A stretch of DNA of 64,000 bases, taken from NCBI GenBank assembly GCA_965287045.1, contig OZ336878.1, forward strand, positions 71,114,001 to 71,178,000. Reading direction: 5' to 3'. A program made the translations under genes and the position numbers. How positions within the stretch are numbered: position 1 is the first letter of the stretch; each line of letters begins with the position of its first letter. The stretch is from Carcharhinus amblyrhynchos (taxonomy: Eukaryota). Below are positions 9,325 through 64,000 of this stretch, one piece after another. The notes under the pieces were generated by a model. The model ran no database searches, was not told the DNA's origin, and saw only the letters and a program-made list of their open reading frames with translations.

Positions 9325-11689
9325 ATAACTTGTGCTCACTGCTCAACCCTTTTATTTAAAAAAAATCCCTTGAATGAAGAAAATTCTTTTAATCAACAGC
9401 ATGCCAGATAGAAAAAAGGAAAACTTTACAACAACACTGGAGCAGCCACAGACAAAAGTCAAAAACAACTCACTTCAGATGTGTCATTTCTTGAAAATAA
9501 AGATGGGTTTAAAGGAATTGACTACCTCCTTCTTCCTCCCCTTCACTAATTTGACATGATACTTTTGTCAGAGGCGATCATTGACCAATGTGCAAGATTA
9601 ATGCCACAGCAACATGTGAAAGTTACAACACTTATACAGCCTTCACAGATCTTGCTTACTTGTAGCAAATTCTAACTAATCACTAATACAGGCAGTAAAT
9701 TAATTGGATTGGACAGATTGCATAATATCTACTGTAAAAACTAATAATCTCATGGAATTCATTTTGGGAAAAATCAAAGAGTAAAATGAAATTGCATCTT
9801 ATTCTCTTTTGGAAAGGAATGTTAACCTTCCAAAATAATACTTAGCATCAGAATGTTCAACTTTATAATGAAACGTGCAAACGAATTCCTCTGCAAGGTC
9901 AGATCTCTGATGCATCACTGCAGTTATGCGATATACACTACCCAGGCAGCTCCACTACTCCCATCATAAACCCCTTTCCGAATGATTCTCTCTCCCTCCC
10001 TCACTCACCTCCCCCCCCCTCTCTCTTTCTCTCTCATACACAAAGACAGAACATGATTTTCACCCGACAGTGAAGTCAATTACCTGAAGCTGCTTTTTAT
10101 CTCCCTGGATATTATCCTCCCTGCACAAAGCCGTTACTGTATGTAAATTAAAAAAGGAAGCTATCTGCAGCTTGGCCTCAGCTGAGCTTGTGCACAATAG
10201 CTGCAGATGAACAATGACAGTGCTTCCCAATCCCCCGTTACCTTTAGGTTGGGGAAAATACAAACATTTTAGTAAATCCCACACTGTAGCAGAACTCCGA
10301 GGTCACGGCTCCGCAGTTAATTAAACGTGCTTTGTTTAAAGTGTGTGGATTGACGATTGATTTTTAAAGAATACCACAACAAAAATCCTTCAACAATCGG
10401 GAACCTTTGTTATCAGTCAACATCTCATGTTTGGAGCACAGGTTTGCCACACTACACCTCCAGGAACGGATGTATATCAGGATAGAACCTGAAACTTCAT
10501 TATTCTAATAGCAGATGTACATTTCCCCCTTACCCCGCTCCCGTCCCCAGCACAAGATTAGATTATTCAGATTTTGTCCCTTATCAGTAGCTAATATTTT
10601 GCAACCGGGCGATTCTATAGCTGCGGTACGCTTTTCTAATAAAGTAATTAGCAGCATCCAAAGTGTAAGGGCTAGGAGCAAAAGACTGCATTGCTGAGGA
10701 GTCACTTGGAAGGCGTTTCAAGACAGCCAAACATTGAAATCCACATCCCCCCTCCTTTTCCCCAACTGTAACATCGAAACAAGAACTCGGGGCTTCACCT
10801 GGACCAGAATTTTGTTTGTAACATTTTTGCGCAGCCAGGCCCTTTGCGAACACATTTGATTTGATGGAATGAAAGATGAAGCTACTTGGTCATGCACGTT
10901 GAAATACTGCTAAAACTTCTCATTCAGTGAATTTAAACCAATTGCTGTTTTCAAATGTCACGTTGCGTTTTGCCCTCCCCAGCAAACACATACAAATCTC
11001 AAATTGCTGAATTTACATTATGATTAAAAAACTAACACAACAGCCCCCTCAGCGGTTGCACGCCAGAACTGTTCCAATAAAAAGTCGCACTCAAGTATGC
11101 GAAAGACCTTCTCTGCGAGAGGCAAAAACTGAGAGGACGGAGCAGCGAGTGATGACTGCTGTATAGACTCTCCCATCAGTAATGCTATGGCGAATATCTA
11201 TCCACCAGCCATCTCACTGGGGAAGACAGTAACAGCCTCTTCCAAACAGGCCAAAGGGGTCTTCCAGAAATAGTCCATTAAAACAAAGTGTCTTTTCTAG
11301 CTTAAATGAATAAGTGGTCAATTAAAACTGACATTTCTGGCTTAACAAATTAAAGTGGCCAACAAAACAAAGTGGCGTTTCTAATTTGACTGATGAATAA
11401 AGCACACCAAATGGTTGTTCGTTCAAAAACCAGTTATTACTTAATACGAGTAAAATAATACAGCACAGAAATTATTATGCAGTCCTAGATATATTTCACA
11501 CAGATGCCACTCAAATATAATCCTTCTCTCCTCCAACCACTGATGCAGAGTCAGGATTTGCCGCGAAATAACCTTATTATGGGAAAAAATAAACTTGCCA
11601 TTTGGAATGTGTACAGCGAGTCCAGCGACAACTATCTGCTCAATACAGCCATCAGTAACCAACCCCCCACACAGTGAGAATCAAGCCTC

Positions 11690-12210
11690 GCCTCTCTCTC
11701 AGACACATACCGAGGAGTTGTTTTCCTCCGGACACCGGGCTTGATAGCTCTGCAGGGCCACATTGGGCTCGTCCAGCAGTTCCAGGACCAAGCTCCGCTG
11801 GATGTTCCGCACTGCCGAGCGCTTGCGGTCGAACATGCCGTGAGTGCCCACATCGGGGCTCCAGATCGGGGCTTGCAAGAGTTCCACAGGAGACGGAGAA
11901 ATCATTGGCGAGAAGGGAGGAGGGGAAAAAAAAACACAATCCACCGGCTCAAAAAGTCATGTTTCGTTCCCAGCACCAAAAGCTGGACTGCAGAGAGGTC
12001 GCCTTGTCTCTCTCTCTCTCCCTGCGGTTGCCTGGCAGCCTCGCGGAAGCTTGCCCCAGCTCTCTCTGCCTAACGAGCAACAGCTGCTGGCCAGCGCCAC
12101 CTTCTCCCCTCCCACTCCACACTCATCAAACTCCGCTCCGGATCCGGATCCAGATCCACTCCGGATCGGGCCGCCGCAGATTACCTCCCACCCTCTCGCC
12201 CTGATCTCAC
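11690..12210 (-). promoter_or_regulatory. CpG island / promoter and 5' UTR of the RalGDS-family gene
   Basis: Sharp local rise in GC and CpG in an otherwise CpG-depleted window. It overlaps the first coding exon and contains a 3-codon uORF (ATG ACT TTT TGA, 11960-11949) and GATCC hexamer repeats near 12138-12170. Confidence 0.8.
11711..11905 (-). CDS. RGL1: First coding exon (65 aa, phase 0) of a Ral guanine nucleotide dissociation stimulator-like gene, most likely RGL1
   Basis: MISPSPVELLQAPIWSPDVGTHGMFDRKRSAVRNIQRSLVLELLDEPNVALQSYQARCPEENNSS ends at donor TCG|GTATGT, with an in-frame stop upstream and GC3-rich codons. The motif RSLVLELLD..NVALQSYQARCPEE aligns with recalled first exons of human RGL2 (RPLRLLLD...VVLSSFRSRDPEE) and RALGDS (VRLEV...VVLHSFTQLDPD). 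The paralog is assigned by adjacency to antisense APOBEC4. Downstream exons were not found in the window. Confidence 0.8.
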
Positions 12211-52355: not shown

Positions 52356-52790
52356 CAACAAAGGAAAATAAGCCATTCTTCTGGACCATATTTTGCATTT
52401 GCCTCAAGGTGAACCATGGTGAGAAAGAGATACAGTGGCACTTGGGAAAGTCATCCTCCAGGTTACAGCTGAGATCCAGCAGGTTACTCCACTCCGAGTT
52501 CAGACCTTCCACTCTCCCCGCTGAAAGTCGAGATCTGCGCAGATCTAGGACTAATTTGCAGAGTGCTCGCACAGTGCCCGTCCTTGGATGAGGGAGAAGA
52601 TGAATTCCCTTGCCCGATGCTAACTAAGGAGATGTTCAGCAACAATTGACGGAAGTGAGCTGCTGAGCTGGTTTAATCTGCATCATGCTCCCACACAGAC
52701 TGTGTGACTCCTGCTCTGGAGGAGGGGGGTGGGGAGGGGGGGGGTGCAGCGGAGCGAGAGACAGAGAAAAGCAGCTAACTTGGCCGTGCC
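52356..52790 (-). promoter_or_regulatory. Candidate distal promoter / alternative first exon of the minus-strand gene
   Basis: Non-repetitive, locally CpG-enriched block with an ETS motif ACGGAAGTG (about 52649-52658), a G-tract Sp/KLF-type box (52718-52746) and a minus-strand donor TTG|GTTAGT at 52356. Phase-0 micro-ORF MAYFPLL (52376-52356, agaATGG). Confidence 0.45.
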
Positions 52791-61999: not shown

Positions 62000-62197
62000 A
62001 ACTCACTAACAAAACAAATTCCCCAGCAAATGGACAGAAGCAGAGGTGAAAGAAAAATACGTTTGCAAGATCTACTGTAGGGTTTCACCAAGAGAAGTCC
62101 GACGTTTGGAATACACTTCGTATTTGAGACGAATCGAAAAGACCACAAGTGCCAGGAAAACAGGTTACTGAAGCTTAGCTGGGTCTCCAGGATACAG
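62000..62197 (+). other. Candidate non-coding first exon of APOBEC4 (5' end approximate)
   Basis: Non-repetitive, CpG-enriched patch ending at donor CAG|GTAAAC about 1.56 kb upstream of the APOBEC4 acceptor. Human APOBEC4 also has a non-coding exon 1 and a single coding exon. Confidence 0.45.
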
Positions 62198-63087
62198 GTA
62201 AACACTTAAAACATACACCCTGGATAATTTACATTTCCACCTTCAGGCCTAAGCCTATCATTCTAACTCTGTACTTGACAGTTTCATATTCAGCTCATAA
62301 TAGATTCACAGGAATTTATTTATAATGACTCTAGGCTTTAGTGCCGCGCTCGAGATTCAACACATTGAGTGATATTTATGCAGCACAGCTGAAATGATTT
62401 ATTTCTAGCTCGAAGCCTAGCTAGATTTTACTCCAGCAATAAAGCATATATTTGCATTAGTTTTGCTACCAATTTGTTTTTCTCATTTTGCATTTCAATG
62501 CTGAAACTAATTCTTCTTGCTACTGCTCACACTTGTGGATGCAAGTCTCCATTTAAAAATTACGTGGCCATCAATCATTTATCAAATTTCTCTCAACAGA
62601 GGTGAACCTAAAGGCTACCAACTCCAATTACATATGTTCCTGAAGGTTTCACCATACTACCTCCAATCATCACACTCAGTCAAACAGCTTCTCACCTGCT
62701 TTAGTGTCCTTTGTGCCTTGGAGAGAAGAGGAGAAATCAGACTAAGTTGGGACATCTAAAAATGGGTTCATTATCTCCTGAAACCTCACAGGTGAACGAT
62801 TACAAAGGTCACTTGTGCAACATACCAAGTATATCCGGCACTCGTACAAGCTAAACCTAGTGAAAGGGGCTAAAATATTCAAAGGGCAGAGAAGAAGGGA
62901 AAAATGTCCATTCAAAAAATAAAATTCCAACTCACCAAAATAGGTAGATTGAAAAATCATGGAGAAATTTTATCCCAATGTAATCATGTGCAAATGCACA
63001 TGATGTTATTATCATTTGGTGTTGTTAGTACTTAATAAATTTGCTACGATAATAGTCTCACCACTGGAGAGGTTCTGTCCCAGGCTC

Positions 63088-63310
63088 CCTATTACAGCAC
63101 AGAAACAGGCCATTCAGCCCAACTCTTTTTTATACTATTTATAATCTCCTCTAATTCTATCTAATATATCTTCATATTGTTTTCCTCTCTTCTAGCTTCA
63201 TTTTGAAAGCATCCAAGCTATTTGCATAAACCACTTCCTATGGAAGTAAGGCCCACATTCTAAGCACTAAGTAAAGACATTTCTAATTTCCATATTGAAA
63301 TTATTAGTAA
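63088..63310 (-). mobile_element. Decayed CR1 LINE 3' end
   Basis: 'ttacagcacagaaacaggccattcagccca...cccacattctaagcact'. Confidence 0.7.
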
Positions 63311-63419
63311 CTATCTGCTATTTATGGCCAATACAAAAAGAAATGTTGCAAATGCTAGAAAACTGAAACAGAAAGATTCAAAACCTGAAATAATTTTAAA
63401 AGAAGGCATGCTGACAAAA

Positions 63420-63628
63420 GGGCCAGAATTCTCTTGCCCTTCATGCCAGCGGGATTCTCCGGTCCTGGCAGCAGTGCACTCCTGTCCATAGTTTCCCACC
63501 GGCATGGGTGTGATGTCAAGGGGATTTTCCACTGATAGCACCAGGGCCAGAGAATCCTGCCACTAACAAACAACGCAACACCTCCCGCTGGCGGGAAACA
63601 CTTGGCTGGGAGGCTGGAGAATCCTGCC
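63420..63628. mobile_element. MITE-like element with terminal inverted repeats
   Basis: GGGCCAGAATTCTC ... GAGAATCCTGCC termini, with internal repeats of GGATTCTC/GAGAATCC. Confidence 0.7.
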
Positions 63629-63757
63629 GAAGGTTTTGAGTTTCCATTGTCTACTTTTATACTAAATTTGGAACATTGACTGCCTTTCCTTCTTACACAA
63701 TCCCTGTAAAAGCACCTTTCTGTAAATAATCAGCACCCATTTTAACTTCTCTTTCAG

Positions 63758-63832
63758 GAATACATTTTTCTTAAAGGATTATGATGGTGCAATGAAATTA
63801 TACTTTCCAAATGCGGAGATGAACCAGCCATC
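63758..63832 (+). other. APOBEC4 coding-exon 5' UTR (after splice acceptor)
   Basis: Pyrimidine tract and acceptor ttttaacttctctttcag|G at 63757/63758; in-frame TGA at 63782 precedes the start codon. Confidence 0.7.
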
Positions 63833-64000
63833 ATGACAGCCATTTATGAAGAATATATTGCTCCTCAGGGCACACTGGTGAAACCTTACTACTGGCTGTA
63901 TTTCACTGAAAGCTGTCCAAAATGTCCATATCACATCAAGACAGGGGAAGAAGCACGTGTTTCCTACATTGAATTTTATGAAAGCTTTGGGTTTCCCTAT
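63833..64000 (+). CDS. APOBEC4: APOBEC4 (AID/APOBEC family putative deaminase), N-terminal 56 codons; continues beyond window
   Basis: Translates MTAIYEEYIAPQGTLVKPYYWLYFTESCPKCPYHIKTGEEARVSYIEFYESFGFPY, colinear without gaps with recalled human APOBEC4 MEPIYEEYLANHGTIVKPYYWLSFSLDCSNCPYHIRTGEEARVSLTEFCQIFGFPY. Start context gccatcATG; antisense to RGL1 as in human. Confidence 0.96.
   Translation, partial: MTAIYEEYIAPQGTLVKPYYWLYFTESCPKCPYHIKTGEEARVSYIEFYESFGFPY

What the first reader, a model, noticed from the sequence alone, without database searches (positions are those of the whole stretch)
63758..64000. Shark APOBEC4 hidden at the window edge (missed by the ORF track)
Seen: an open frame from 63833 to the edge, with a splice acceptor and upstream in-frame stop, encoding YEEY...VKPYYW...CPKCPYHIKTGEEARV...FGFPY. 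Known: this is the APOBEC4-specific N-terminus with a CxxCxxH motif. APOBEC4 is a poorly understood AID/APOBEC member with no established substrate and is reported missing from teleosts. Inference: ungapped conservation between shark and human implies strong constraint on this non-catalytic N-terminal module.
Basis: partly seen in the sequence, partly recalled or inferred. Interest (0 to 1): 0.7.

Follow-up and report, generated by a model that had tools for sequence, protein, structure and literature searches.

The report
Intact shark APOBEC4 gene
This is an ordinary, intact shark copy of APOBEC4, a little-understood relative of the enzymes that change C to U in DNA and RNA; it contradicts a review saying sharks lost the gene, and it keeps two pocket residues that no placental mammal copy examined keeps together, which would make it a useful protein for testing whether APOBEC4 edits anything.

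Summary
Observation confirmed. The frame from 63833 continues past the window edge as one intact 373-codon ORF, with one match in the genome. It is APOBEC4: 87% identical to white shark APOBEC4, with HPE and PCx6C motifs, an AID/APOBEC fold, a place among shark sequences in a tree, and RGL1 next door. Probable RNA contigs of a relative splice a non-coding exon (donor 62198) onto the acceptor at 63758. The CxxCxxH motif is not new: Krishnan 2018 predicted it as a second metal site with a loop-3 cysteine (C86 here). Residues 39-56 belong to the deaminase domain, not a separate module. Ten named cartilaginous fishes already have annotated APOBEC4, although a 2021 review says sharks lost it; one teleost also has it. 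One lead: Asn85 plus an aromatic residue 123 (AID/APOBEC3A pocket positions) occur together in 11 of 12 cartilaginous fishes and 0 of 38 placental mammals, and the negative assays I saw used placental proteins. Pro93 and Ala155 argue against canonical activity.

The parts
62151..62197 (+). 3' part of the non-coding first exon of APOBEC4 (its 5' end is unknown)
   Evidence: 47 letters lie on this side of the joint in contigs of X1 and X2; followed by GTAAAC
62198..63757 (+). 1,560-nt GT-AG intron in the 5' UTR; holds high-copy repeat fragments
   Evidence: Joint L002:198 to 1772 with 13 letters between that match the start of exon 2; GT and AG read from the sequence
63758..63832 (+). 5' UTR part of exon 2, with in-frame TGA (63782-63784) and five out-of-frame upstream ATGs
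63833..64000 (+). APOBEC4 codons 1-56 of 373; the ORF continues 954 nt beyond the window
63914..63934 (+). C28-x2-C31-x2-H34, three ligands of the predicted second metal site (fourth: C86, outside the window)
   Evidence: 103, 103, 103 and 104 of 104 homologues; predicted in PMC5889660
63947..64000 (+). Residues 39-56: start of the canonical deaminase domain (helix 45-52 and the beginning of loop 1)
   Evidence: Model residues 39-234 align to APOBEC3A 10-196, Z 20.5, rmsd 2.1; helix from the model
52356..52376 (-). Probable upstream coding exon of the neighbouring gene RGL1 (context)
   Evidence: 6 of 7 residues match the N-terminus of skate RGL1, E 0.004 within 286 kb; followed by GT
11711..11905 (-). 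Coding exon of the neighbouring gene RGL1 (context)
   Evidence: 89-91% identical to shark RGL1 N-termini

Best explanation
This is the shark's intact APOBEC4 gene, whose protein is predicted to be one AID/APOBEC deaminase domain with two zinc sites and likely works as a slowly evolving nucleic-acid-binding regulator rather than as a general single-stranded-DNA mutator. Shown: a non-coding exon, a 1.56-kb intron and one coding exon of 373 codons, head to head with RGL1; catalytic-type ligands H92, C126, C133 and E94; near-invariant C28, C31, H34, C86. Predicted: residues 39-234 fold like AID/APOBEC3, and the tail after about residue 241 is mostly low-confidence except a conserved VVRHL patch and a basic end. 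Inferred: a second zinc ties the N-terminal extension to loop 3 and so shapes the substrate groove; the groove grips a specific structured nucleic acid, but Pro93 removes the backbone NH that reads the target cytosine in APOBEC3A/3G, so deamination is absent or narrow. Confidence in the gene's identity is about 0.98; the number below is for the mechanism.
For: Identity: best hits are named APOBEC4 from sharks to mammals; PF18775 74 bits against a cut-off of 27.2; starred placement among cartilaginous fishes, apart from this genome's AID-like and APOBEC2-like loci; fold Z 21.3, rmsd 1.9 over 172 residues to AID; RGL1 adjacent. Not a general mutator: human APOBEC4 did not deaminate the ssDNA substrates tested and its effect survived zinc-site mutation (PMC4889046); human, mouse, rat and 'Mf' APOBEC4 base editors gave 0.02-0.56 in the 32 of 148 rows seen (PMC7189382); the A71 NH of APOBEC3A and the A258 NH of APOBEC3G bind O2 of the target cytosine and this position is Pro in 12 of 12 cartilaginous fishes, as in the N-terminal domain of APOBEC3G; the loop-7 Arg of AID aligns with Ala155; 25 of 33 changed codons among the 35 coding differences listed against the related organism are synonymous; bowfin keeps the second-site residues but not H92 or C126 (one sequence).
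Against: E94 is kept in 104 of 104 homologues, H92 and C126 in 104, C133 in 103, as expected of an enzyme. The shark keeps Asn85 and Tyr123, aligned with the Asn and Trp of AID, so negative results on placental proteins may not carry over. No expression pattern, substrate or partner was obtained for the shark. The geometry of the second site could not be measured, and residues 1-30 have low confidence in the model (block means 42-54).
Confidence: 0.55

Rival explanations
1. Shark APOBEC4 is an active cytidine deaminase on a narrow substrate (a structured RNA or DNA, possibly needing a cofactor); placental mammals eroded the pocket, which is why their proteins test negative.
For: Asn85 plus aromatic 123 together: 11 of 12 cartilaginous fishes, 24 of 28 amphibians, 15 of 18 sauropsids, 0 of 38 placentals; aromatic 123 alone 62 of 67 versus 0 of 38; 20 of 28 amphibians also lack Pro93. 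N57 of APOBEC3A is described as critical and W98 contacts the -1 base. E94 is invariant. Chicken APOBEC4 is reported to reduce viral RNA (review passage).
Against: Pro93 and Ala155 are non-canonical. Lampreys, bichir and the teleost have Gly or Ser at 85 and His at 123, and sturgeon Asp and His, so the state is not universal and its ancestry is unresolved. Tarsier, left out of the count, keeps Tyr123; 14 of 38 placentals keep Asn85. Position 123 is one of 9 positions that differ this way between placentals and the rest, and placentals are one clade, so this may be a single event. W98 reads the target cytosine through its backbone, not its side chain. The N85 equivalence rests on sequence alignment, not a residue-level superposition.
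Confidence: 0.3
2. The protein acts as a zinc-stabilised scaffold through protein contacts (N-terminal site, VVRHL patch, basic tail) and does not need nucleic acid in the pocket.
For: R314 and H315 are kept in 98 and 100 of 104 homologues inside an otherwise variable tail; human APOBEC4 binds ssDNA weakly and only with its lysine tail.
Against: Pocket positions Y157 and H158 (102 of 104 each) and E94 are conserved; no partner was identified.
Confidence: 0.13
3. Pseudogene, or a different AID/APOBEC clade (AID, APOBEC2, NAD1).
For: Pfam NAD1 scores higher over the whole protein (86.2 bits over 163 residues) than the short APOBEC4 model (74 bits).
Against: No stops, one genomic match; named hits and tree are APOBEC4; AID-like and APOBEC2-like genes lie on other contigs; spliced contigs in a relative. 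No NAD1 sequence was in the tree.
Confidence: 0.02

Closest known systems
APOBEC4 of cartilaginous fishes (NCBI/UniRef annotations, e.g. Carcharodon carcharias)
   Same: 87% identity over the full length; same motifs and length; RGL1 on a contig of the same length in five named species.
   Different: Only ordinary sequence divergence.
Human and mouse APOBEC4 (PMC4889046; Rogozin 2005 seen only as a citation)
   Same: HPE, PCx6C, CxxCxxH plus C86, VVRHL patch and basic tail in placental homologues; 44-48% identity.
   Different: Placentals examined lack the aromatic at 123 (0 of 38) and often Asn85 (14 of 38 keep it); sharks mostly have Ala at 155 (10 of 12) where others have Gln.
Cnidaria-algae-APOBEC4 clade of Krishnan et al. 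2018 (PMC5889660)
   Same: Predicted second metal site from two Cys, one His and a loop-3 Cys; slow evolution.
   Different: The paper lists APOBEC4 from tetrapods, sarcopterygians and agnathans, not chondrichthyans. It places CxxCxxH in loop 1, whereas my model puts it just before the first helix that aligns with APOBEC3A.
AID and APOBEC3A (active deaminases)
   Same: Fold (Z 20-21, rmsd about 2), zinc ligands, catalytic Glu, aligned Asn, loop-5 aromatic and loop-7 Tyr.
   Different: 16-19% identity, six residues between the cysteines, Pro in HxE, no loop-7 Arg, extra N-terminal site and a tail of about 135 residues.

Membership tests
AID/APOBEC deaminases | HxE and PCxnC zinc-site motifs | tested here: met
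   H92-P93-E94 and P125-C126-x6-C133
AID/APOBEC deaminases | Deaminase fold | tested here: met
   All listed Foldseek and VIA-align rows are AID/APOBEC; Z 21.3, rmsd 1.9, 172 aligned
AID/APOBEC deaminases | C-to-U activity on polynucleotides | not testable with these tools
   Needs assay; human APOBEC4 was negative
APOBEC4 | PF18775 above its curated cut-off and best hits named APOBEC4 | tested here: met
   74 bits against 27.2
APOBEC4 | Residues of the second metal site (2 Cys + His + loop-3 Cys) | tested here: met
   C28, C31, H34, C86
APOBEC4 | Those four residues meet around one metal ion | not testable with these tools
APOBEC4 | Coding sequence without introns | tested here: met
   One 373-codon ORF; feature stated in PMC8201067. 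A 5' UTR intron is present
APOBEC4 | Groups with APOBEC4 orthologues in a tree | tested here: met
   100/99 for the 25-row APOBEC4 group and 100/100 for cartilaginous fishes; 27 rows, only two long-branch outgroups, midpoint root
APOBEC4 | Linkage to RGL1 (human arrangement recalled, not from a call) | tested here: met
   RGL1 exons on the minus strand within and left of the window; nesting inside an RGL1 intron was not shown
AID or APOBEC2 | Orthology to these genes | tested here: not met
   Separate loci on C903 and C22 resemble the AID and APOBEC2 rows of the Krishnan supplement
NAD1 clade | Groups with NAD1 sequences | tested here: inconclusive
   Highest whole-protein Pfam score, but no NAD1 sequence was in the tree and no listed hit bears that name

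The most novel reading that the evidence does not exclude
APOBEC4 is a real C-to-U editor in sharks and frogs, with a second zinc site that gates its substrate groove, and it looked dead only because the assays used placental-mammal copies whose pocket had decayed; shark or frog APOBEC4 would reveal the family's missing substrate.
Probability: 0.2. Interest if true: 0.65.

Novelty: new member of a known kind. Interest (0 to 1): 0.3.

Why it matters
The gene itself is an expected orthologue, already annotated in ten named cartilaginous fishes. It corrects two statements in print (lost in sharks, PMC8201067; emerged in amphibians, PMC3880073). The pattern of pocket residues points to a cheap test of an old question, whether APOBEC4 has any catalytic activity, by assaying shark and frog proteins instead of placental ones.

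Tried and rejected
RFX X-box (ciliary programme) at the promoter: motif recalled, not from a call; no strict match in the window, and the one 2-mismatch site near exon 1 is one of 12 such sites; literature searches gave no direct support. Rejected. Nesting inside RGL1: no RGL1 exon was found beyond APOBEC4 in 286 kb with 11 full proteins and 8 N-terminal peptides; non-coding exons would be missed. Expression: no run on record as RNA holds the stretch, so there is no tissue information; contigs give no level or strand. dN/dS: no coding DNA of orthologues was available; only a synonymous/non-synonymous count on 35 coding differences from a table showing 40 of 270 rows. Sequence searches of the PDB gave only APOBEC3 chains (weak with the single protein; E 4e-5 with the profile); no APOBEC4 structure appeared. 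Poly(A) signal: first AATAAA/ATTAAA 2,162 nt after the stop, uninformative. The RA-domain search did not find even the main RGL1 gene, so it says nothing on the copies. The Atlas search used the white shark homologue and returned the APOBEC4 cluster. Three earlier scan notes on giant-virus APOBEC4-like genes were not used.

Full report
Observation. The sequence shows a pyrimidine tract ending in AG at 63756-63757, an in-frame TGA at 63782-63784 and an ATG at 63833 that opens the quoted peptide. The window lies at G000:C9:71,114,001-71,178,000. In the flanking DNA the frame continues without a stop to a TAG at C9:71,178,954, giving 373 residues. The protein has one match in the genome (the tool scores only its best candidates), as has the first-exon region.

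Identity. Of 844 candidates, 145 match at E<=0.001 and 120 are listed. The best are APOBEC4 of cartilaginous fishes (87% white shark down to 58% Callorhinchus; ten named species and one unnamed), then lobe-finned fishes, tetrapods and sturgeon. Pfam APOBEC4 scores 74 bits over its full 74 positions; NAD1 scores 86.2 over a longer stretch. The genome has three APOBEC_N loci; the other two resemble the AID and APOBEC2 rows in the supplement of PMC5889660. A 27-row tree places the protein among sharks inside APOBEC4 (24 hand-picked homologues of 120, two long-branch outgroups). The species was not determined.

Gene structure. Contigs of runs X1 and X2 (one study, a relative about 90% identical, RNA status guessed by the tool) join L002:198 to 1772 with 13 letters between that match the start of exon 2; this gives an intron from GT at window 62198 to AG at 63757. 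Contigs of X3 and X4 cover the intron and that joint is not listed for them. Among 35 coding differences taken from a table showing 40 of 270 rows, 25 of 33 changed codons are synonymous. The neighbour on the minus strand is RGL1, with an exon at window 11711-11905 and a probable one at 52356-52376, about 10 kb from the first APOBEC4 exon. APOBEC4 and RGL1 records share contig lengths in Heterodontus, Heptranchias, Pristis, Amblyraja and Callorhinchus, indirect evidence of old linkage. That the human gene lies within RGL1 is recalled; nesting was not shown here.

The N-terminal motif. Alignment A2 holds 105 of the 121 proteins; 16 (five named primates, eleven unnamed records) were left out beforehand. 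C28, C31 and H34 are kept in 103 of 104 homologues and C86 in 104; residues 1-56 are ungapped in 96 of 104. Mean modal-residue frequency is 0.65 for residues 1-27, 0.81 for 28-56, 0.69 for 92-133, 0.72 for 134-240 and 0.31-0.35 for most of the tail. Lampreys, bichir, bowfin and a teleost keep CxxCxxH and C86 but little of the first 25 residues. Krishnan et al. [quoted passage not shown] The AlphaFold model (mean pLDDT 71.7; block means 83-98 over residues 31-240, 42-54 over 1-30) aligns residues 39-234 to APOBEC3A 10-196 (Z 20.5) and from residue 40 to AID (Z 21.3). So most of what the window shows after the motif is the start of the deaminase domain, and the motif sits just before its first helix. 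I could not measure ligand distances.

The pocket. H92, E94 and C126 are kept in 104 of 104 and C133 in 103. By sequence alignment with this genome's AID, Asn85 matches the loop-3 Asn and Tyr123 the Trp of SWSPC. In APOBEC3A, N57 orients the substrate, W98 contacts the -1 base with its side chain and the target base with its backbone, and the NH of A71 binds O2 of the target (PMC5414352; likewise A258 of APOBEC3G, PMC6018426). An aromatic 123 occurs in 62 of 67 non-placental and 0 of 38 placental rows; Asn85 with it in 11 of 12 cartilaginous fishes, 24 of 28 amphibians, 15 of 18 sauropsids, 1 of 5 monotremes and marsupials, 2 of 4 bony fishes and 0 of 38 placentals. Against this reading: tarsier, among the 16 rows left out, has Tyr123; lampreys, bichir, sturgeon and the teleost have His123 and no Asn85; position 123 is one of 9 with a similar placental shift; placentals are a single clade; and the shark has Pro at the A71 position and Ala at the loop-7 Arg. 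Twenty of 28 amphibians have Asn85, an aromatic 123 and no Pro93, so frogs are the best candidates for activity. That APOBEC4 lacks the SWS motif is already stated in general terms (PMC8201067), and PMC5889660 reports near-zero entropy at substrate-binding positions of APOBEC4, which my count at 123 does not match.

Mechanism. Most likely (0.55) a two-zinc deaminase-fold protein that binds a specific nucleic acid and regulates it with little or no editing; next (0.3) a narrow-substrate deaminase still active outside placental mammals; then a protein scaffold (0.13). Human APOBEC4 is expressed in testis, showed no ssDNA deamination and enhanced promoters independently of its zinc site (PMC4889046). 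In a base-editor screen the four APOBEC4 proteins seen were human, mouse, rat and 'Mf', with values of 0.02-0.56 in the 32 of 148 rows read; I take these as percent, against 32.3% quoted in the text for rAPOBEC1, and did not read control rows (PMC7189382). All mechanistic steps for the shark protein are inferred.

Literature and novelty. PMC8201067 says APOBEC4 is lost in sharks, PMC3880073 that it emerged in amphibians, and PMC5889660 does not list chondrichthyans; databases already contradict this. Loss from teleosts is incomplete: Aplochiton taeniatus has an annotated copy (10 of 54 profile hits were looked up). Ten literature searches listed no paper devoted to shark APOBEC4 or to a placental loss of this aromatic residue; the library lacks most subscription journals. 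What I saw: PMC5889660 passages, section 10 and a few supplement places (file cut when stored; its APOBEC4 alignment, Fig. S13, was not read and may bear on both the shark and the residue claims); PMC4889046 abstract and sections 3, 10, 13; PMC7189382 passages and 32 supplement rows; passages only of PMC5414352, PMC6018426, PMC8201067, PMC3880073, PMC11545081 and PMC10661471; Rogozin 2005, Lada 2011 and Shi 2020 only as citations.

Verdict. A real, intact, ordinary APOBEC4 orthologue: new member of a known kind, interest 0.3, with one testable lead about pocket residues.

Noticed in passing
G000:C9:71.48-73.62 Mb (right of the window); L026, L027: Eleven extra copies each of the RGL1 REM exon and a CDC25 exon, in both orientations. 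Two copies checked are 90-95% identical to the main gene's DNA with the exon open. The exon at window 11650-11950 has four extra copies, 95-100% identical. A recent segmental expansion of RGL1 that spares APOBEC4, or an assembly problem; completeness of the copies is unknown.
   Followed up: partly
G000:C9:71.051-71.074 Mb (L010-L012): Shark RGL1 proteins carry a tandem array of about 25-residue units between REM and CDC25 that match many short repeated exons here; protein lengths range from 798 to 1235 among cartilaginous fishes.
   Followed up: no
window 63781-63835: Five upstream ATGs, all out of frame; two short upstream ORFs end in a TGA that overlaps the main ATG (ATGA), a possible translational control.
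   Followed up: partly
protein P0246 (bowfin APOBEC4): Lacks the catalytic-zinc His and first Cys but keeps CxxCxxH and the C86 equivalent; single sequence, could be decaying.
   Followed up: no
protein P0276 (unnamed, 677 aa): Distant hit (E 3.5e-5) with a CxxC-x4-H motif, the loop-3 Cys, HAE and PCx6C, suggesting the second site is older than vertebrates.
   Followed up: no
G000:C9:55.01 Mb: The nearest ARPC5-family exon is 16 Mb from APOBEC4; in human these genes are neighbours (recalled), suggesting a local rearrangement.
   Followed up: no
window about 63092-63124 and 63421-63628; L002:3028-3089: High-copy repeat fragments in the intron and downstream of the stop (very high contig depth); not classified.
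   Followed up: no
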